Assembly: GCA_964016885.1 (NCBI GenBank)
Contig: OZ024741.1
Coordinates: forward strand, 191,952,001-192,016,000
DNA from: Eledone cirrhosa
Taxonomy: Eukaryota
DNA: 64,000 nucleotides
Direction: 5' to 3'
The notes below the pieces were generated by a model that worked only from the letters and a program-made list of their open reading frames with translations, had not been told where the DNA came from and did no database searches. Positions 10,096 to 64,000 of the stretch are shown here, one piece after another (the first letter of the stretch is position 1; the number at the start of each line of letters is the position of its first letter). A program made the position numbers and the translations under genes.

Positions 10096-10600
10096 GTGAC
10101 AACAACTGAGGGCCTTTCACTCCCAGGTGAAAAAAAAAAAAAGTACTATTTGGATGGCCGTTGACTCTGCTGAGTTCCTCCACCCTTTGCCAAGTCTAGT
10201 ATTTCATCCCACAGAGTGTCCAAATATCCTCACATAGCAAGCTTACTGGGGTTGCCGGTTTAGTCGGTGACGACCCGACCATGAGACAGGTTGTACTGGG
10301 TTGCATGTTACCAGTAGCACTCGAGTGCTTTCTAAGAGGGAAACTCTGAAAAAAAACCTGCGGCTTCGGAAGCATCCAATGATGTTGACAAGTTCTCCTT
10401 TTCGGGTAGTGTTTTTGATGCTCAGAAGGTGGGATTGGTCGAGTGCAAGGCCTTTCTGAACTTAAAAAACGTTCAAAGCACAGGCATTGCTTGTTCAGGT
10501 TATGTTACAGGTTTGTGTGGCTGGCTGTAGCCTAAAGGTGCACGACTTTCTGTAATCTGAGAAGTGATTCCAATACTCTTAGCAGAGTTTGTAGCCATCA
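10096..10600 (+). mobile_element. Non-autonomous bipartite RTE derivative (5' UTR plus 3' end) with an inverted 5' segment
   Basis: 10096-10324 is the reverse complement of about 22190-22350. 10326-10550 matches 22357-22580 directly. 10552-10600 matches the RTE terminus at 25432-25482. Confidence 0.8.
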
Positions 10601-10602
10601 TG

Positions 10603-10618
10603 TGTATATATATATGTG

Positions 10619-10705
<87 letters not shown>

Positions 10706-10712
10706 TATATAT
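10603..10712. repeat. (TA)n microsatellite
   Basis: Seen directly. It produces the spurious YIYI start of ORF 10564-11958. Confidence 0.95.
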
Positions 10713-12225
10713 AAATAACCAAAAAATAGAAAAACTACGCAAAGATATAAGAAAACTACTACTCAAAATAGGACTAACTATAACATATGAACACAACCTT
10801 AAAGTAGTTAACTTCCTGGATGTCACACTCAATTTAAACTCTGGTCTGATTAAACCGTTTCATAAATTGAATGAAAATCTCAAGTACGTAAATGTTGGGT
10901 CTAACCACCCCATCTCTATAATTAAATCTATCCCTAAAAATATTTCCCTTAGAATCTCGGGCCTATCTTCTAACATACAAGTATTTAAGGAACACGCCGA
11001 GTACTACGATAACGCCCTTAGTAAAGCAGGCTACCTCAACAAAATAGAATATATAGATGAAAACAATCAAAACACCCAAAATAAATCCAACATAGGTAGA
11101 AATAATAACACAACACCAAACCACACTTACTACCATAGTGTACACACCAGTAAACCAACAAACAAAACTAATAGAAAGCGATGCAAAGAGTACTTATGGT
11201 ATAACCCTGAATACAACAGTTCCATTAGTACAAATTTACCAGTACTCTTCTTTAAAATAGTTATGAAACATTTTCCTACATCACACAAATACCATAAAAT
11301 CCTAAACCCTACCACTATAAGACTGTCATACTCTACAGTGTTAAACCTTGAACAACACATAAAAAAGATCAATACTAGAAGGTTAAACGAAAACACTAAA
11401 AACTTAAGTACAAAGAACACAAAAAAAACAGTAGACAATACACTACAGAACATAAATAAACCACACCTAAGTTCGTCTGCAATACTACTCCAGAGTAAAC
11501 CTAACTACAAAACCAACGTACACAACCGTAACTGCACCTATCCTGACAATTGCCCCCTTGGCAATAACTGCCTTGAAAAAAATATCATCTATAAGTGTAC
11601 CATTGAATCCGGAGGCAACGAGTGGTACTACGTGGGATCAACGGCAACATCGTTTAAATCTCGATTATATAGGCATTCTTACTCAATAAAACACCAGAGC
11701 CAAAGAAATGTAACAACTTTAGCAGATAAAGCTTGGACACTCAGGGATAGCGATCAAAAGTTTACCCTAAAATGGGAGAAATTAGCTAAAACCCAAAGCT
11801 TTTCCAGGAGCCAAAATTTCTGCAAATTATGTAATCTTGAGATTTATTACATAATCACACACAAGAAGAAATTGCTTAATAACAGAATTGAACGAACATT
11901 ATTTTGCCGTCACCGAACTAAAACCCTTTTTTCCCACTACAAGCTGAATATTACATAAACGAGGGACATCCTCCCAACTATACAAATCCTCAATCTAGTT
12001 AGAAAAATATAAAAACAATCACTTCTCAACATATATATGTACTATTAATAACCTTAAATTATCAGACTAATAATGGATAAATATGCTGGTGAGAATAGGT
12101 GCGAATATGCTATAATGAATGTGTCTAAAAGCGACCATATGTATGTATATATGTGAAAATGTATATAAATAAGAAAATAAGTGGGTGAGTGTATATATAT
12201 ATATATGTTTGATGTGTATAATTAA
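10713..12225 (+). mobile_element. Penelope-like element, Naiad-type, 5'-truncated (RT C-terminus plus GIY-YIG; frame open to 11958)
   Basis: VNFLDVTLNL, YVNVGSNHP, WYNPEY, linker C-x5-CPLGNNC, IIYKC...YYVGST..FKSR, CKLCNLE, CRH. Confidence 0.9.
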
Positions 12226-30637: not shown

Positions 30638-30770
30638 ATTGTTTCTACTTTTGGCACAGCAATTACCCAGTACATTACTGGTACTTTATTTTATCAACCT
30701 CGTAAGGATGAAAGGCAAAGTTGACCGGCGGGATTTGAACTCAGAATGGAAGGGGCCGATACTGCCAATA
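30638..30770 (-). mobile_element. tRNA-derived SINE, truncated (second family)
   Basis: B-box GAGTTCAAATCCC on the minus strand; near-identical to copies at 40522, 50702 and 51503. Confidence 0.8.
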
Positions 30771-40129: not shown

Positions 40130-43100
40130 AGAGTTTGAAAAGAAAAAAATCTGGACAGTCAGTGACAATGCCAAAGATAAAGACAAATTCACCTCATGCT
40201 GCCGGACGAGAATGCAAGGACTCCTCCTCTTTATTTCGGCCGCGGATGGCTAACATAACCCCATCCGCGCCCCACCGTTCCCACCCTCCAAACGCAATCC
40301 AAAACTTCAGAGTTGGTACCATGAATGTAGGCACCTTAAAAGGTCGCTCTAACGAGGTTGTAGAAATACTTGAACGTAAGGATGTCGATGTTTGCTGTAT
40401 TCAAGAGACCAGGTGGAGGGGTGGGTCTGCTAGATTCATTGTGGGTAAAGAACGATGCTATAAGCTTTTCTGGGTGGGTGGCGTAGGAATCATGGTAGCA
40501 GAAAAGTGGGCAGATAAGATAATTGTTTCTACATTAGGCACAAGGCCAGCAATTACCCAGTGCATTTCTGGTACTTTATTTTATCGACCCCGTAAGGATG
40601 AAAGGCAAACTCAACCTCGGCGGGATTTGAACTCAGATCGTAAAGGGACGTAACTATGCTGGAAAGCATGGCGTCCGACCCTCTACCGATACGTAAATAG
40701 AGTGAACGACAATAATTAAAATAAGACTTGTCCTCAATAGAACTACTGTGACAACAATATCTGTATATGCACCCGAATCCGGACTGTCTGGTGTTATAAA
40801 AGACAGATTCTATGAGGTGTTAATGCTCACTACCTCCCAAATAACCAACAGTGACTACATAGTTATCGCTGGCGACCTAAATGGTCACGTTGGACAACAT
40901 TGTGACGGCTATGACGGAATCCATGGAGGCTATGGGTTTGGTACTAGAAATAAGAAAGGCTCTAGAATCCTGGAATTCTGTGACGCAAATAACCTAACTA
41001 TCTGTAACACTAACTTAAAAAAACGAGACAATCACTTGATCACCTATAGATCAGGGGAACACACCAGCCAGGTAGATTATATCCTTACCAGAAGATGTGA
41101 CAGTGTCTGTTGTAAACACTAAATCCCTCCCCCATGAAGAATGCACCTCTCAACATAGACTCATAATTAGCGACCTCATAGTCAGGACGAGACGTACTCG
41201 ACAACAGAAGAGGACTATCCTCAGGAGAAAAATATGGAAGCTAAAGGACCCCACAACCAGTAATAAATTTAAAGGCATATTACTTGATGCTTTTGATAGT
41301 AAGGAAGAGCAATTAGAGTCGTACAATATAGAGGAACATTGGGAATTCCTGAAAGCTAACCTGCTGAAGGCGACAAATGAAATCTGTGGCAGGAGGAGAG
41401 TAACTTGGTGGTGGAACAGCAAGGTGGAGGAGTCAATCAAGGCCAAAAAGCAGGCTTGGAAAGCATGGCGGGATGGGGGAAGTAGAGAAGACTATCATGT
41501 GGCCAGGAGGGAAGCTAGGAGACAAGTGTACTTCGCAAGAAGGGAAGCAGAGGAAAGAAAGTTCAAGCATGTTCTACAACGCGAGGACCAAAAACGTGAG
41601 GTGTTCAGGTTTGGTAGGCAATGTGTCAAGGAAAACAGTGATAACAGTGATATTGTCGGGGAGAAGTGTGTCCTAAATGATGATGGTGTACTTGCCATCA
41701 CTGACGCTGATAAGAAGGTAGCTTGGAAGTGTCGCTACGAAAGGATACTAAATGAGGAGAACAATTGGGAGAAAGACAGTCTCCCCCACATCGATCTAAT
41801 AGAGGGACCAGCATTGCAAGTTGAAGGTAGTATAATAAGTAAGGCGATCAAAGATATGAAGACAGGCAAGGCGGCAGGGCCTTCGGAAATAGTTGCTGAA
41901 ATGCTGAAAGCATCTGGAACGGTGGGACACACTATGGTCATCCGGATAGTAAACCAAGTCATACAGAATGGGGTCGTTCCGAAGGACTGGCGTAGCAGCA
42001 TCATCATTAACTGCTACAAGGGTAAAGGAGATGCCTTAGATAGGGGAAACTATAGAGGCATTAAATTAATTGACCAGGTCATGAAGGTCACAGAAAAAGT
42101 AACAGCGGAACTAATCAGAAAGAGAATTGATCTAGATGAAATGCAGTTCGGGTTTGTGTCAGGTAAAAGTACAACAGACGCTCTTTTCATTGTACGACAA
42201 CTACGGGAGAAGTACCGAGCTAAAAGTAAACCCCTATACTTAGCTTTTGTTGACTTGGAGAAAGCCTTTGACAGAGTACCCCGCTCCATTATCTGGTGGC
42301 CTCTTAGAAAACTAGGTGTTGATGAATGGCTTGTGAGAGCTATACAAGCCATGTATAAAGAAACAGTCAGCAAGGTTAGAATTAACAACTAATATAGTGA
42401 AGAGTTTAGCGTAAAAGTTGGTGTTCATCAGGGCTCCGTCCTTAGCCCCCTACTATTTATTATTGCCCTTCAGGCTATAACAGAGGAGTTCAAGACCGGC
42501 TGCCCACGGGAACTCCTATACGCAGATGATCTAACGCTCATAGCTGAATCAATGGCTGAACTAGAGAAGAAATTCCAAACATGGAAGCATGGCCTAGAAT
42601 CCAAAGGCCTTAAAATTAACCTGTCTAAGACTAAAGTTCTAGTTTGTAGGAAGGAAAATAGGGCACTGGTACCATCTGGGAAAAGGCCATGCTCAGTGTG
42701 TAGGAAAGGGGTAGGCTGAAACTCCATTTTATGTCCCAAATGCAAAGTATGGGAGCATAAAAGATGTAGCGGGATCACAGGTAAGCTAACTAAGAATATA
42801 GATTTTATATGTGGCCGGTGCTCAGGTGCTATAAGTAGCAAGTGCCCACAGAATACTAGCTCATTCCATTGCACAGATGGTTCTATAGAAATAGTGGACA
42901 CCTTCCGTTACCTGGGTGACAAAATCAGCAGTGGTGGAGGGTGCTCTGAGTACAGTAGCTAGAGTCAGAACGGGATGGAAAAGGTTCAGAGAGCTTATAC
43001 CACTATTGGCTGCTAAAGGGTTCTCTCTAAAAATGGAAGTCAGGCTGTATGATGCCAGTATACAAACAGCAATGTTACATGGCAGTGAGACTTGGGCATT

Positions 43101-50701: not shown

Positions 50702-50815
50702 ATTGTTTCTACTTTTGGCACAAGGCCAGCAGTTACCCAGTACATTACTGGTACTTTATTTTATCGACCCCGTAAGGATGAAAGGCAAAGTTAACTTCGG
50801 CGGGATTTGAACTCA
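50702..50815 (-). mobile_element. tRNA-derived SINE, 5'-truncated
   Basis: Same family as 40522-40691. Confidence 0.8.
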
Positions 50816-51502: not shown

Positions 51503-51615
51503 ATTGTTTCTACTTTAGGCACAAGGCCAGCAATTACCCAGTGCATTACTGGTACTTTATTTTATCGACCCCGTAAAGGATGAAAGGCAAAGTCAACCTC
51601 GGCGGGATTTGAACT
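51503..51615 (-). mobile_element. tRNA-derived SINE, 5'-truncated, with TSD-like flanks
   Basis: Same family as 40522-40691; flanked on both sides by AACTATAACGATAGATTTAAT. Confidence 0.8.
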
Positions 51616-51630
51616 ATAACGATAGATTTA

Positions 51631-54020
51631 ATGACAACCCCTTAGAGAACCTATTCTTCAACCCAGCTGACAAAATGAACAAAATTCACCTCACTAAATT
51701 ACCTTTTAATAAGAGTTTGTATACCACAACAAATAGATGACCAAACAGAAGCACAGTTCACCATAGCTAGAAATAAACTTAGACAGGTAGTAGACCAATA
51801 TACTAAGAGACAAAGCAGACCATAAATCCAACAACTTGGAAGGAAACCTGTAGAAGGCCTACTTAGCCCCAAGCAGCGCACAGGGGATGGTGAGGTAGTG
51901 TGTCCACCCGACGATAGGACCACCAAATACCTTTATGCGGAGCCAATATTGCTAGCAACTACAGGATATACTTTCTCTCGATGGCTATACGCCCCATAAT
52001 TAAGATGTTCCCAGATATGTGACAGTACAGAGGACGTCCTCAGCAGAATCAATGAGTGCACCATAACCTCAATGGCTAAAAAGACTCCCATGGGAAGATG
52101 GAATAGATGGACCAAACCCATACGGACACCCCAAAACAATGATCAGGTGAGAAAAATGGTCGCACATGCAATAGGGGCTAGTGTTAAAACTACCCTAAAG
52201 GGCCATATGTTTAAATTTAACGAAAACATCTACACCCAGAATGAGGGAGCAGCCATTGGCGTCAGCATAGCTGGTGACGTTGCCAATCTATTTATGGTAT
52301 GGTGGGAAAGGAGACTCAAAGAACTCCTTGAAGAGAGCTCCATAGACCTCGTCATGTACTCTCTGTACGTAGACGATATTAATATAGTAATAAGAACACC
52401 CCACAAGAGAGTACTAATGAACATGATTTAGAAGATAGCACAATGGAAAGCATCCAGCAGATAGCTAACTCCAGAGACCAAAGTATAACCGTAACTGTTG
52501 ACTACCCTTCCAAACACCCTAACAATAGACTACCTGTATTAGACACGGAACTTTGGATTAACACTATAGACGAGAGGGTCCAAATTCTCCACTCACACTA
52601 CGCGAAACCCATGGCCTCCAAATACCTGATACTCAAAAACTCAGCAGTGTCCAATAGTTCTAAGTTTAATATTCTGATCGCAGACTTGGTACGAGTGATG
52701 AAGAATGTGTCCCGCATGTGCGACCCAACAGAAATGGAAAGACACATCCAACACTCCATCAACCGCATGCAGTTCTCTGGCTACAACCAAAGAGATAGAA
52801 TCAGAGTATACAAAGGAGTCACGGAGAACTATAAGACCCTCATAGAAATGGAAATGAAAGGAATTTGCCCATTATACAGGAGAAAATCATGAAATAGCTT
52901 AAATAGGACTAAACATAAGATAGGGAAAGTCACTTCATGGTACGACAACCAGAAATACCAGACTGTCATGTTCGTGGATGCTACCCCTGGGGGAAATTAC
53001 CTAACGAATGTAGAAAGGCTCTAAGAAAGACCCACTTAAATATTAAAATGGTAGAAAAGCCAGGAACTACCATAAAGTCCCTGATCAGCAAAACATACCC
53101 CGTTAAGAAAACCCACTGTACTATTAAGAAATGTGTTATATGTAAAATGAACCCCCAGATAAACTGTAAAACTAGAAATGTAGTCTATAGCATAAGATGT
53201 ACAGAGGGTACTTACAGAAACACGACAACTCGAAGCATAGGAGAAAGAATAGACCAACACTGGGGGGAACTAAAAGGCCCCCCAAAAAACGGTTCAGTAC
53301 TATACGAACACGCTAGACAAAGACATGGCGGTAACATAGACAACATAGAAATTAAGATAATATCTAAACATAGAAATGACTCAACAGGTAGGCAAATCAG
53401 AGAAGCAACTGAGATAGAGCTTAGAAGACCAAAATTAAACAGAGAAAATTAATGTAATAACAACAACAACCATACCCAAACAAACAATCCTGACTTAAGG
53501 GAAATATAAATAAATAAATATATACACAACTACAATAACAATAAACATATAAACACAGAACACACACATAAAGATAGAATACAAAAACATAAACACAGAA
53601 CACACACACCAACCGTTATACACACACGAAAACGCATGCGCAGAGACGGAGACAAGAATAAATAAATAAATAAAATAAAAATGGCGTAGACATTACAGTA
53701 CATTACAATACAATGGGAGGAAACATAATAGTAGCACTGATGATGTTGCAGATGTGCAACGAAAGAACTTTGATAGACTATATATATATTTATATCGTAC
53801 TGGTAATAAGGTAGTAATAAATTACTGCCTTTCACTATTTAGGGTTTGTAATATATATAACTATAAAAGGTTTTAGTATATACATAACCATAAATAGTAT
53901 CCTTAATACTATATTTATATCTGTATTTTTTAACCGCTGGTCAATCAATGATAAACATTGATTACCAAATAAATTAACTATCGAGATATAAAAGATACAG
54001 AAGCGAAAGCCAACCAAACA
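51631..54020 (+). mobile_element. Penelope-like element, Neptune-type, decayed, with 3' pLTR
   Basis: QNEGAAIG...ANLFM, YVDD, LPVLD, linker CTIKKCVIC, VVYSIRC, ERIDQH, EH...HG, IREA...PKLN. Confidence 0.85.
53728..53781 (+). ncRNA. Hammerhead-like motif in the Penelope pLTR
   Basis: AUAGUAGCA-CUGAUGA-U-GUUGCA gaug UGCAAC-GAAA-GAAC-UU-UGAUAGACUAU; stems I and III are imperfect. Confidence 0.55.
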
Positions 54021-54890: not shown

Positions 54891-55790
<900 letters not shown>

Positions 55791-55887
55791 TGTAATCTGA
55801 GTTTTTCGAATATTAATAATAACATTCGATTCGTTTGCAATTATGCAAACAAGCCTCATTTTTAAGCCATGTCATTCTTGCTCATGT

Positions 55888-55969
55888 GTTGGCATGTAAA
55901 CAGAACTGCAGACACTAATGTTTCTGGGTATCACCCTTCATCAGTACAGCTCACTGTTTACCTGCCAAC
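55888..55969 (-). ncRNA. Type-I hammerhead with GUC site and extended stem I
   Basis: GUUGGCAgGUAAACAGuGAGCUGUA-CUGAUGA-aGGGU gau ACCCa-GAAA-CA uuag UG-UC|UGCAGUUC-UGUUUACaUGCCAAC. Confidence 0.8.
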
Positions 55970-56017
55970 TGTCAGAGCTAGTGAAAATATATGCTATTTT
56001 CAAAAATACACAGTGAC

Positions 56018-56123
56018 TGATCGGCCTTGATTTGCATATTAGCAGACTGGCTGATCAGTCAGATCTGCATATTAGCAGATCCACTGATCAGCCAGATTTG
56101 CATATCAGCAGACTGGCCAGTCA
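56018..56123. repeat. Three ~33-bp tandem units with octamer-like ATTTGCAT
   Basis: TGATCRGYC.GATYTGCATATYAGCAGA x3. Confidence 0.75.
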
Positions 56124-56182
56124 GTTTCCTGTATACGAGCGATAAATCGCCGGCTTTGCCAGATTCAAATAAAAAAGAAAAT

Positions 56183-56280
56183 TTTGCTCAAGGACATGAC
56201 GCATAACCCAGTCCAAGAATCGAACTCACAACCTCAAGATTGTGAATCCAATTCTCTAAACACTCAGCCACACACCTTCA
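56183..56280 (-). mobile_element. tRNA-derived SINE head
   Basis: A-box TGGCTGAGTG, B-box GAGTTCGATTC, then GTCCTTGAGCAA. Confidence 0.7.
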
Positions 56281-56292
56281 CAAATGTGTGTA

Positions 56293-59300: not shown

Positions 59301-59545
59301 AGCAATAATTAAGTAGTCGCTGTCGGTTATTTGGGAGGTAGTGTGCATTAGCGACTCATAGAACCTGTCCTTTATAACATCAGGTAGACCAGATTGGGGT
59401 GCATAAGCAGACATTATTGTCACAGTAGTTCTTTTTAGAACTAGTCTTAATTCAACTATTCTGCCATTCACTCTATTTACATCAATTACCTTATCTACCC
59501 ATTTTTCAGCTAACATAATTCCTACTCCACCCAGTCCGTTGTGAA
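56328..59545 (-). mobile_element. RTE LINE (PHD family), near full length, frameshifted
   Basis: ORFs 59028-59516 (APE), 58341-58945, 57186-57833 (YADD and PHD) and 56853-57158; 3' UTR and (GAT)n tail. Confidence 0.95.
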
Positions 59546-61340
59546 GAACAAGAGTCTGAAAGTGAGTTAAGTTTATATGAGCTGGAAAGCAAGTGTGATT
59601 TCATGTGTGGGCAATTAGTGAAAATTTCTGTTTTTGCATTTAGGCAGGTTTTTGGTGATTTAAGGTTCTGTAAAATCCAATATTTTTCACTTGTGCAGAG
59701 TGCGCATCTTCTTGTTCCTCTTGCATATTCTTTAGATTGGTTCAAAATTGACCAATCTAATTTATATTGGATACCTTGGTCTTTCAAATCCCATATTCTG
59801 CTAGCCAGAACTGTTGTAAATCTATTTAAAGGATGTCGGAAAGAAGCGACATATGAGTAATAACGAGTTTTGAATTTGTCTTGTGTCATACCCACATATC
59901 GTTCGCTGGTGGCTGGTAGGTTGTTGGTGGTGGTTGTCCCTTTAGCCGCATATACAATGGCTTTGGTGTTGCATTTACCTTGTAATGGGCATTCACTTTT
60001 GACTCTACAGGAGCAATTTTGATATTCTCTGGGTATTTTCTTATTGAGGATATAAGATTTAATAGGGGGACCGCAGGAGTAGCTGATTTTGACACAGTTT
60101 CTATTGAAGATCTTATAGTATCTATGTGTTCTAGGGAAATGTTTATCTAAGAGCTCTAGGAATTTTTTGCCTACATTAGTTTTAACTTCTAAAGAGTAGG
60201 GGTGTGTGAACCAGATTATTTTTCTTTTCCTATTATTATGTTTAAAGGAGTTAGTATTGTTGGGTATGTACTTAATCGGTTCGCTAAATCCGCTATTTTG
60301 AAGGGCTTTATTATAGTAGGGGGATGCCTTATTGAAAATAGCTTCTGAGGAAGAGAGGGTGGAGATCCTACGGCTAATATTAGGGATAAGATTAAAAAAA
60401 ACTATAGGAGGATGGCAAGAGCCTTTATTTATATATTTTAAATTTTCATTAGGTTTATGGTACGGTTTATAAGAAGCAGTAGGCAGATCTAGGTTTATAT
60501 CTAGAAAATTAACATTAGAAAGGTTAGTGTCAATGGTAATTTTAAGATTAAAACTAGCGAAGGTTTTCATTAAGTCTTTCCTGAATCTATCTAAGATATG
60601 GCCTATAGTGGTATGGGAAAGTATTAGACCATCGTCACGATAAAGCCCATAGGTATGGTTAGGGAATTTCTCTTTAAGTGTGTGTAGGAGGAATAGGCCG
60701 ACTAAATCACACACGTCAGCACTGTCAAAAGAACCCATTGAGACATCGAATAGGTTCTCTGGGTTAGATTTTTTTACCCAAGTATCATTATTAGTAAATA
60801 GTAAAGTGTTTCTAGCATGCAAAATGACATTCTCTTCAATATCAGAAATATTGATAAAATTTCTAGCGAAATTTAATGCATTCGTTAAAAGAGGGTGAGT
60901 AATAGACGGGTAGAAGTCTACAATGTCAAATTGGGTGAATCTAGAACTATTTTTATCTTTAATATTATTAAACCAATGTACTACGGAAGAGCTATTTATC
61001 CATTGGAGTAATTCAGACTTACTTCTAATATGTTTGTTTATATTATTTAATATTTTTTTGCTAGCAAGGCCGATTTCAGTCTTAGCGGGGTTGATTAATC
61101 TACAACTAGGACGATTAATAAAATCAGGTTTGTGATCTTTGAGGGTGATATAGGCATTATGTTTAGCAAGTTTTTCTGTTCTATTGTCTAGTTTAAAAAA
61201 AACTAGCTAATTCTTTAGCTTCCTTATTAATAGTATTATAGGTGTTTATATTAGCTATTTGGTATTTAGAGGTGATGTTATCTGTTAAGAGTTGGTCATG
61301 TAAGTTATTATTAACTTCGTATAAGTTTTTAGTTATATAT
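59546..61340 (-). mobile_element. Penelope-like element, Naiad-type (RT plus GIY-YIG; frame open from about 61195)
   Basis: YITLKDHK, CRLINPAK, FDIVDFYPSI, FDVSMGSFD, GLYRDDGL, CSC-x5-CPLQGKC, YVGMT..FKTR, CALCTSEK, CPH. Confidence 0.92.
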
Positions 61341-63379: not shown

Positions 63380-64000
63380 CCTTAGATAGACCCATCCGGT
63401 ATCACTAAAGCGGAGAGCGTGCATTTACGTTGGTGTCTGCAGGCTATGATGATTTCAGATTTAAGGTTGACTGCTTCGCCCTTTTAGTTTTACTATCTCC
63501 ATAGCCTCGGACAGGCACAACCTGCACCTCATCTCGCCAGCCGAGTACGCATTCGTGCGCTGGACAATACTCCAGCTGAGGTCAAACTCCGTGCCACTGT
63601 CTTTGAGTCCCCAAGTTAGGTCCGCCAGTCTGGTGGAGTGTCTTTTGTTCCTGTCTTTGAACGAGTTCTTGTGGTTGTACATCCTCGATTTAAAAGTCGT
63701 GGATGTTGCCTCGGTGTAGGTGTGCTTATCATTGTGCGTGGTAACCACACCTCTGTAGACAACGCCCTTTGTCAGGCACATTCCCCGCAGAGGGCACTGC
63801 TCATCTACACGGCAGTTACAAGTCCGTGCATCATTTTTGTCATTCCCTTTATGTTGGCCTGACGTCTTATTTGGGTTCTCTCCGGTCCTCATGTGGTGTT
63901 CCGGCAGAGTGGTGGACTCAGTGTTCACCACCTGCTGGTCTCTGAAATATTTCAAATTACTAAGATGAATATGCAAATGAGGTTAAGGTATAGGGCTGAA
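63380..64000 (-). mobile_element. Penelope-like element, Naiad-type, GIY-YIG end (runs off the window)
   Basis: CNC-x5-CPLRGMC, GVVYRG, TFKSRMYNH, CRLCLSE, and CRH after a frameshift. Confidence 0.88.

What the first reader, a model, noticed from the sequence alone, without database searches (positions are those of the whole stretch)
55888..55969. Hammerhead with GUC site and ~23-bp interrupted stem I, not linked to an ORF
Seen: full core, a stem III that can form in cis, a GUC triplet (cut between 55911 and 55910), and a long bulged stem I. An A-A apposition at the base of stem II is non-standard. Known: bulged stem I contacting loop II is what makes natural type-I hammerheads fast. Inferred: the best candidate here for a monomer-active ribozyme.
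Basis: partly seen in the sequence, partly recalled or inferred. Interest (0 to 1): 0.75.

Follow-up and report, generated by a model that had tools for sequence, protein, structure and literature searches.

The report
Retrozyme hammerhead with fixed A·A mismatch
This is one copy of a protein-free jumping repeat with well over a thousand copies, and it carries an intact hammerhead ribozyme motif with an unusual mismatch shared by the whole family; where the inserted copies break off suggests the RNA does cut itself in the animal, likely slowly or as a pair rather than as a fast single unit.

Summary
The hammerhead is real (minus strand; all core bases, GUC, cut 55911^55910), but it is not stand-alone. 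It sits in a truncated copy (55786-56189) of a ~439-nt non-coding tandem-unit repeat with 1,603 exact core matches in the genome: a non-LTR retrozyme with Penelope-type insertions (49 of 57 copies end at two fixed sites; 30 of 57 have an inverted arm). The A·A at the base of stem II is the family state (1,524 of 1,603), not decay. Sister families confirm stems I and II by covariation and redraw stem I as 5 bp plus a UGAG×UU loop. Arm 5' ends pile up at the predicted cut (10 versus 1.5 expected; a comparably stable hairpin shows no excess), indirect evidence of cleavage in vivo, yet 107 of 129 arms read through it. 'Fast monomer' is doubtful: stem III is a 10-nt palindrome, sisters are obligate-dimer types, and the closest tested analogue (axolotl Amex2) is weak alone. 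No partner element or RNA data found. The scan has reported octopus retrozymes with Penelope footprints before on other DNA.

The parts
55786..56189 (-). Single truncated, circularly permuted copy of the ~439-nt retrozyme unit (unit positions 160-439, then 1-143 after the cut; one 17-nt deletion); one hammerhead only
   Evidence: 97.9% over 281 nt to the family majority sequence
55888..55969 (-). Extended type I hammerhead ribozyme motif
55938..55944 (-). Core CUGAUGA (C3-A9)
   Evidence: sequence
55925..55937 (-). Stem II: A10.1·A11.1 mismatch, GGG/CCC, loop UGAUA
   Evidence: A·A in 1,524 of 1,603 cores
55912..55924 (-). GAAA core plus stem III ACAUUAGUGU: 3 bp + UUAG loop in cis, or a 10-bp self-duplex between two copies
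   Evidence: self-duplex -8.8 kcal/mol; isolated hairpin not stable
55910..55911 (-). Predicted cleavage site (GUC^U)
   Evidence: sequence; 5' ends of family copies enriched here
55904..55953 (-). Stem Ia (55949-55945 with 55910-55906) and internal loop UGAG (55953-55950) × UU (55905-55904), the predicted partner of loop II
   Evidence: covariation in 4 of 5 stem Ia pairs across 10 sister-family sequences; the contact itself is inferred
55786..55846 (-). Two small hairpins conserved in sister families and the first of two fixed 3' ends (about +143), the inferred reverse-transcription start region
55600..55785 (.). (TA)n-rich microsatellite target, extending further left
   Evidence: 44 of 49 family ends run into a microsatellite
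56047..56095 (-). Internal ~20-bp hairpin of the unit (used as the stall control)
   Evidence: -36.9 kcal/mol
56184..56283 (-). Unrelated high-copy SINE head with A-box-like (56270-56260) and B-box (56225-56217) motifs, joined to the copy's 5' end by a short overlap; T4 and T6 runs at 56181-56171 would stop Pol III before the ribozyme
   Evidence: sequence; high depth; boxes read by eye; ARAGORN found no tRNA

Best explanation
This hammerhead motif lies in one truncated copy of a ~439-nt non-coding repeat family (a non-LTR retrozyme) that was likely pasted into (TA)n by the enzymes of a Penelope-like element, and it likely cuts its RNA at the GUC only partially, predicted to work best when two units pair their palindromic stem III. 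Steps: (1) tandem source arrays are transcribed (inferred; no RNA data). (2) Adjacent hammerheads fold as a double hammerhead and cut, releasing unit RNAs that may be circularised as in other retrozymes (inferred). (3) A Penelope-type RT starts at two fixed sites about 143 and 180 nt downstream of the cut, one per arm (ends shown, enzyme inferred). (4) On cut templates it runs off at the cut; on uncut or ligated templates it reads through (both patterns shown). The A·A pair and the core/stem III mispairing would damp cutting of single units. The window copy has one ribozyme and less than one unit, so it is probably a dead-end insertion.
For: Copy number: 1,603 core matches, control 0. Unit: 14 core-to-core spacings of 430-470 nt, 39% GC. 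In 57 copies taken in order along contig C1: 34 end at +130-150 and 15 at +160-190; 44 of those 49 run into a microsatellite; 30 of 57 have an inverted arm; the two arms use opposite sites in 22 of 23 scorable cases, two of them a duplicate pair. This matches the 30-40-bp one-ended PLE 'tail' (PMC11167929, PMC8557442). Covariation: 25 cells changed on both sides against 9.7 in shuffles, slid controls 0-3. Cut footprint: of 129 distinct arms reaching +8, 10 end at -1..+1 (1.5 expected, Poisson p about 3e-6) and 22 at -1..+8 (5.2 expected); the rate drops to 0.35%/nt just upstream; the 3' strand of a -36.9 kcal/mol hairpin has 2 ends against 5.8 expected. Dimer: 10-bp self-duplex; in 2 tandem loci the double hammerhead costs 8.4-10.7 kcal/mol against 19.5-20.6 for two monomer folds; sisters have ACAUGU or ACUAGU palindromes. 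Circular fold of the unit z = -9.5 against 40 shuffles.
Against: No cleavage assay. No autonomous partner found: no similarity to the unit in 6 young ORF-bearing loci, and in 60 PLE-protein loci only one hit, an older copy of the unit, from just two PLE families. Ends are also enriched at +9..+20 (1.9%/nt), inside the 3' strand of stem I, so stalling may contribute. Folding energies ignore tertiary contacts, and the core/stem III mispair also appears in the lowest-energy folds of all sisters and L051, so it is weak, uncalibrated evidence. Only 3 of 57 copies scored two exact cores in one direct run, so dimer-competent sources are rare. All sampled copies come from one contig and the two arm sets overlap (de-duplicated by junction). 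In vitro, PAc inserts from uncut RNA and its ribozyme needs protein (PMC11167929); 8 of 9 Xenopus retrozyme dimers did not cut (bioRxiv 10.64898/2026.07.22.740005).
Confidence: 0.7

Rival explanations
1. Same element, but the ribozyme is a fast stand-alone monomer: the 4-nt gain in stem III and the loop I/loop II contact compensate for A·A.
For: Stem III can close with 3 bp and a tetraloop, unlike sisters B-D; 5-bp stem Ia plus internal loop is conserved; coral and mussel retrozyme monomers cut at about 0.8 and 0.1 per min (PMC7229834); most copies are single units.
Against: 10-nt palindrome retained; purine mismatch at the most conserved stem II pair (PMC3088659); predicted 7-bp core-sequestering helix with more than 99% occupancy; 107 of 129 arms read through the site, though ligated circles would also give that; Amex2 precedent.
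Confidence: 0.18
2. The A·A family ribozyme is inactive or vestigial; the element spreads from uncut RNA, and the 5'-end excess is reverse transcriptase stalling in stem I.
For: The enriched zone (+1..+20) coincides with the 3' strand of stem I; PAc does not need cleavage in vitro (PMC11167929); the folding model favours an inactive fold.
Against: Single most common end among arms reaching +8 is exactly +1 (7 arms), with an abrupt drop upstream; the control hairpin shows no excess; all core bases are kept across five subfamilies while stems covary.
Confidence: 0.09
3. The unit is the detached end repeat (pLTR) of a still unidentified autonomous PLE rather than an independent retrozyme lineage.
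For: Retrozymes derive from PLE pLTRs in Xenopus (bioRxiv 10.64898/2026.07.22.740005); only two PLE families were checked.
Against: Complete ORF-less tandem units exist; none of 30 sister-family loci had a consistently attached PLE ORF; the sisters form long ORF-less arrays.
Confidence: 0.03

Closest known systems
Metazoan non-LTR retrozymes (coral, mussel, axolotl; PMC7229834; vertebrate survey bioRxiv 10.64898/2026.07.22.740005)
   Same: Non-coding tandem unit of a few hundred nt, low GC, one type I hammerhead per unit, highly self-paired predicted circle, co-occurring PLEs
   Different: Cephalopods are not mentioned in the main text of PMC7229834; unit slightly longer; mostly single or two-armed dispersed copies; RNA and circles untested here
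Axolotl HHR_Amex2 (PMC7229834, section read)
   Same: Mismatch at the base of helix II together with a more stable helix III than its relatives
   Different: A·A instead of U·U; stem III of 3 bp with a 10-nt palindrome
Penelope/Poseidon PAc of Anolis (PMC11167929) and PLE insertion structure (PMC8557442)
   Same: Two internal start sites 30-40 nt apart downstream of a hammerhead, AT-rich targets, inverted 5' arm, tail on one end only
   Different: No ORF; full extended hammerhead rather than a minimal one; partner not identified
Newt/salamander satellite-2 extended hammerhead (known here only through PMC6155905 and PMC7229834 passages; original papers not held)
   Same: Internally looped stem I extension that must match loop II; palindromic helix III; dimer cleavage
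   Different: Amphibian helix III has 1 bp; sequence identity to published satellite 2 could not be checked

Membership tests
Type I hammerhead ribozyme | Core C3 U4 G5 A6 N7 G8 A9, G12 A13 A14, A15.1-U16.1, H17 | tested here: met
   definition from PMC3088659 passage
Type I hammerhead ribozyme | Stems I, II, III with covariation | tested here: met
   for stems I and II; the two stem III pairs are invariant, so uninformative
Type I hammerhead ribozyme (canonical) | Paired 10.1-11.1 (usually G-C) | tested here: not met
   A·A in 1,524 of 1,603; A-U in 12; G-C in 0. Filed as a variant; natural U·U variants are known (PMC3088659, PMC7229834)
Type I hammerhead ribozyme | Match to an Rfam hammerhead model | tested here: not met
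   L051 was also missed
Type I hammerhead ribozyme | Site-specific self-cleavage | not testable with these tools
   only the indirect genomic footprint
Extended (fast) hammerhead | Loop I/loop II tertiary contact | tested here: inconclusive
   geometry conserved; loop pairs differ together between subfamilies (UGAG with UGAUA; mostly UAUA or UAAA with UAAUNA) but in few independent events
Non-LTR retrozyme | Non-coding tandem unit of about 150-450 nt with a type I hammerhead per unit, GC below 50% | tested here: met
   (439 nt, 39% GC, 14 tandem spacings)
Non-LTR retrozyme | Dispersed high-copy family co-occurring with PLEs | tested here: met
Non-LTR retrozyme | Linear and circular unit RNAs | not testable with these tools
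   no run on record as RNA; contigs only
'Active' retrozyme locus (Li et al. definition) | [quoted passage not shown] | tested here: not met
   the window copy has one; other loci meet it
PLE-mobilised element | Two 3' ends 30-40 nt apart, tail on one end, inverted arm, microsatellite targets | tested here: met
PLE-mobilised element | Shared end sequence with an autonomous PLE | tested here: inconclusive
   not found in the two PLE families sampled

The most novel reading that the evidence does not exclude
A natural hammerhead with a purine-purine mismatch at 10.1·11.1 is active in vivo, and weakening that pair (A·A here, U·U in a 27,000-copy sister family, U·U in axolotl) plus a stem III that locks the core in single units is a repeatedly evolved brake. 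It keeps circles and uncut templates closed while tandem transcripts cut. The genome's own insertion ends record the share of cut versus uncut templates used by a Penelope enzyme.
Probability: 0.3. Interest if true: 0.65.

Novelty: new variant of a known kind. Interest (0 to 1): 0.42.

Why it matters
The role of the hammerhead in PLE and retrozyme mobilisation is open: in vitro a PLE used uncut RNA and no RNA-seq ends were seen at the cut (PMC11167929). Here insertion ends show both cut and read-through templates in one family, and sister families with A·A, U·U and G-C at 10.1·11.1 form a natural series for testing how ribozyme strength relates to spreading. Strict descriptors discard such mismatched motifs (PMC3088659), so they are probably undercounted. 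The element class itself is known and has been noted repeatedly by this scan.

Tried and rejected
Rfam: no hammerhead hit; microsatellite-driven miRNA hits are noise. A·A as a private decay mutation: rejected. A universal mismatch in all sisters: rejected; family D is G-C in 100 of 100 listed matches, many from arrays, and the A·C row L180 in my alignment is a mutant copy, so the '10 of 10 unpaired' figure overstates it. Family C as pLTR of the window's PLE family: rejected, these are separate insertions in adjacent (TA)n. A free-standing SINE with a Penelope tail: not supported, since unit sequence lies just upstream in nearly all of 30 loci. Upstream SINE head as promoter for this ribozyme: unlikely, T4 and T6 runs intervene (sequence). 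Expression: no RNA holder listed; three contig sets laid show presence only. Viral contigs: 0 matches. Bacterial promoter scan irrelevant. Partner search by a recalled Pfam accession failed, not in the library. Literature: the stem II sequence was found in no relevant paper; no paper held all terms for 10.1/11.1 mismatches; A10.1/A11.1 search gave nothing relevant among 20 of 47 listed; no paper held SINE + penelope + non-autonomous + tRNA-derived + hammerhead; hammerhead + ribozyme + octopus gave 7 listed papers, none by title on a cephalopod retrozyme. Five newt papers were not held and the PMC7229834 supplement could not be read; either may already show an A·A variant.

Full report
Observation. 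On the minus strand the motif reads stem I 5' strand, CUGAUGA (55944-55938), A-GGG-UGAUA-CCC-A, GAAA, CAUUAGUGUC, cut at 55911^55910, then the stem I 3' strand. All core positions listed in PMC3088659 (passages) are present. The 82-mer folds far better than shuffles (z -4.97, 0 of 200), but that fold pairs the core with stem III. Rfam has no hammerhead hit.

Parent element. The stretch 55800-56180 has 2,701 first-look candidates in the 3.0-Gb genome, 40 scored at 89-100% identity. The core pattern has 1,603 exact matches, control 0. Fourteen core-to-core spacings of 430-470 nt define a 439-nt, 39% GC unit. The window copy covers unit positions 160-439 at 97.9% and 1-143, so it is under one unit with one ribozyme. 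It ends in (TA)n and is joined at its 5' end to a SINE head whose T-runs would stop Pol III (read by eye). The host is probably an octopus; this is inferred from repeat content and earlier scan notes, not tested.

Insertion footprint. I took 57 core-bearing loci in order along contig C1 (three variant-picked loci left out). Of these, 34 end at +130-150 and 15 at +160-190 after the cut; 44 of the 49 run into a microsatellite; 30 of 57 have an inverted arm. Reading that table, the two arms use opposite sites in 22 of 23 cases where both fall in the two bins (L048 and L049 are duplicates). This is the tail signature of Penelope-like elements: two RT start sites in PAc (PMC11167929, parts 1-2 of 4 read) and a 30-40-bp tail at one end with an inverted arm (PMC8557442, passages). 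A 2026 preprint ties retrozymes to PLE end repeats (parts 1-3 of 5 read). I found no partner: two PLE families were sampled (60 loci plus 6 young loci), and the family at 52000-53452 has its own different hammerhead-like motif.

The A·A pair. It is the family state: 1,524 of 1,603 cores; 35 differ at 11.1 (17 G, 12 U, 6 C, all with A at 10.1), none is G-C. A descriptor scan of fetched loci found related families. A2 and B also have A·A (522 cores; that pattern fixed the A's). C has U·U in 98 of the first 100 listed of 27,104. D has G-C in 100 of the first 100 listed of 4,193. So the mismatch is tolerated in very successful families but is not universal. Natural U·U is published (PMC3088659; axolotl Amex2, PMC7229834 section 15). 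I found no report of A·A, but the newt papers and one supplement were not readable.

Structure by comparison. On 10 hand-picked sequences of five subfamilies, 90% of cells pair; 4 of 5 stem Ia pairs and 3 stem II pairs change on both sides; the score is 0.546 against 0.214 shuffled and at most 0.09 when slid. The sequences are related, so these are not independent events. Stem I is 5 bp, then an internal loop (UGAG, UAUA or UAAA against UU), then a distal helix. This is the arrangement described for extended newt hammerheads (PMC6155905, passages). Against the family majority the window copy differs within the motif by one distal G-C to A-U pair and a one-base shift at its edge.

Monomer or dimer. 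Stem III is self-complementary over 10 nt (-8.8 kcal/mol). B, C and D have 6-nt palindromes that can close only 1 bp in cis, the dimer type described in PMC4209133 (passages). The nearest-neighbour model puts the active monomer 6.5 kcal/mol above a fold that pairs the core with stem III. In the 2 tandem loci that matched my strict pattern, the double hammerhead costs 8.4 and 10.7, against 19.5-20.6 for two monomers and 10.7-14.1 for one. This is weak evidence: tertiary contacts are ignored and similar mispairs appear for the sisters. Amex2, the closest tested case, cut 22% in 1 h alone and much more as a dimer. For the monomer view: this family gained 4 nt that let stem III close, and invertebrate retrozyme monomers can be efficient.

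Evidence of cutting. I mapped 5' ends of arms chosen by anchors downstream of the cut (96 arms at +8..+39 and 95 arms at +86..+119, from the first matches listed on C1). Among 129 distinct arms reaching +8, 7 end at +1, 2 at 0 and 1 at -1 (10 against 1.5 expected); 22 end at -1..+8 (5.2 expected). The rate falls to 0.35% per nt just upstream, and a -36.9 kcal/mol internal hairpin shows 2 ends against 5.8 expected. Ends are also frequent at +9..+20, which could be loss of terminal bases or stalling in stem I. 107 of 129 arms read through the site, so most templates were uncut or ligated. This is indirect, concerns the family's source copies, and says nothing about the window copy being transcribed.

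Verdict. A real extended type I hammerhead variant in a Penelope-mobilised retrozyme: known kind, with a fixed A·A pair and a genomic trace of partial cleavage. Shown: anatomy, family, ends, covariation. Inferred: enzyme, circles, dimer mode, braking role. Earlier scan notes describe the same kind of element and footprint on other DNA; I read them after reaching the retrozyme and two-site reading.

Noticed in passing
L051:9-60 (minus): The only metagenome match is a different type I hammerhead sharing the core and the 11-nt stem II-loop (23 of 25 letters) but with G10.1-C11.1 and a 1-bp stem III with a palindromic loop, like the amphibian type described in PMC7229834 (resemblance partly recalled). 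The older A2 subfamily has a different loop II, so the match looks convergent.
   Followed up: partly
L122-L151; L033, L099, L114: At least 849 exact junctions where a ~184-nt SINE with a tRNA-like head is followed by the unit's +109 onward tail and ends at the same two sites. Unit sequence lies just upstream in nearly all of 30 loci, with variable junctions at about +72..+126: a SINE-carrying subfamily or repeated template jumps; 9 of 57 core-selected copies carry it.
   Followed up: partly
window 40526-40692, 50706-50815, 51507-51615, 30642-30745: The same SINE subfamily occurs four times in the window without the retrozyme; the first three lie next to other hammerhead-like motifs or PLE fragments.
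   Followed up: no
window 53737 (+) and 40075 (+): Hammerhead-like core about 300 nt after the ORF of an abundant PLE family (52000-53452), with an extra base before stem II and no evident stem I; present in most of 30 relatives, and young copies have ORFs over 1,000 aa.
   Followed up: partly
window 33605 (-), 49926 (+), 50337 (+), 14210 (+), 25810 (+): Further hammerhead-like cores; 49926 and 50337 are 411 nt apart with a TATA-palindrome stem III, a likely second retrozyme-type pair.
   Followed up: no
L248-L287: Sister families C (27,104 cores) and D (4,193 cores) form long young arrays (D up to 31 units of ~466 nt), unlike this family, which is mostly single or two-armed.
   Followed up: no
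run X5 on window 55921 and 55926: One deep contig carries changes at A15.1 and in stem II, an apparently inactivated variant; the run type is not on record.
   Followed up: no
window 10561-11958 (+), 59506-61206 (-), 63461-63982 (-): Further PLE-like ORF fragments by inspection (weak RVT_1 match for 59506-61206 only); the family at 59506 gave 65,656 first-look candidates. Many LINE RT fragments fill the rest of the window.
   Followed up: partly
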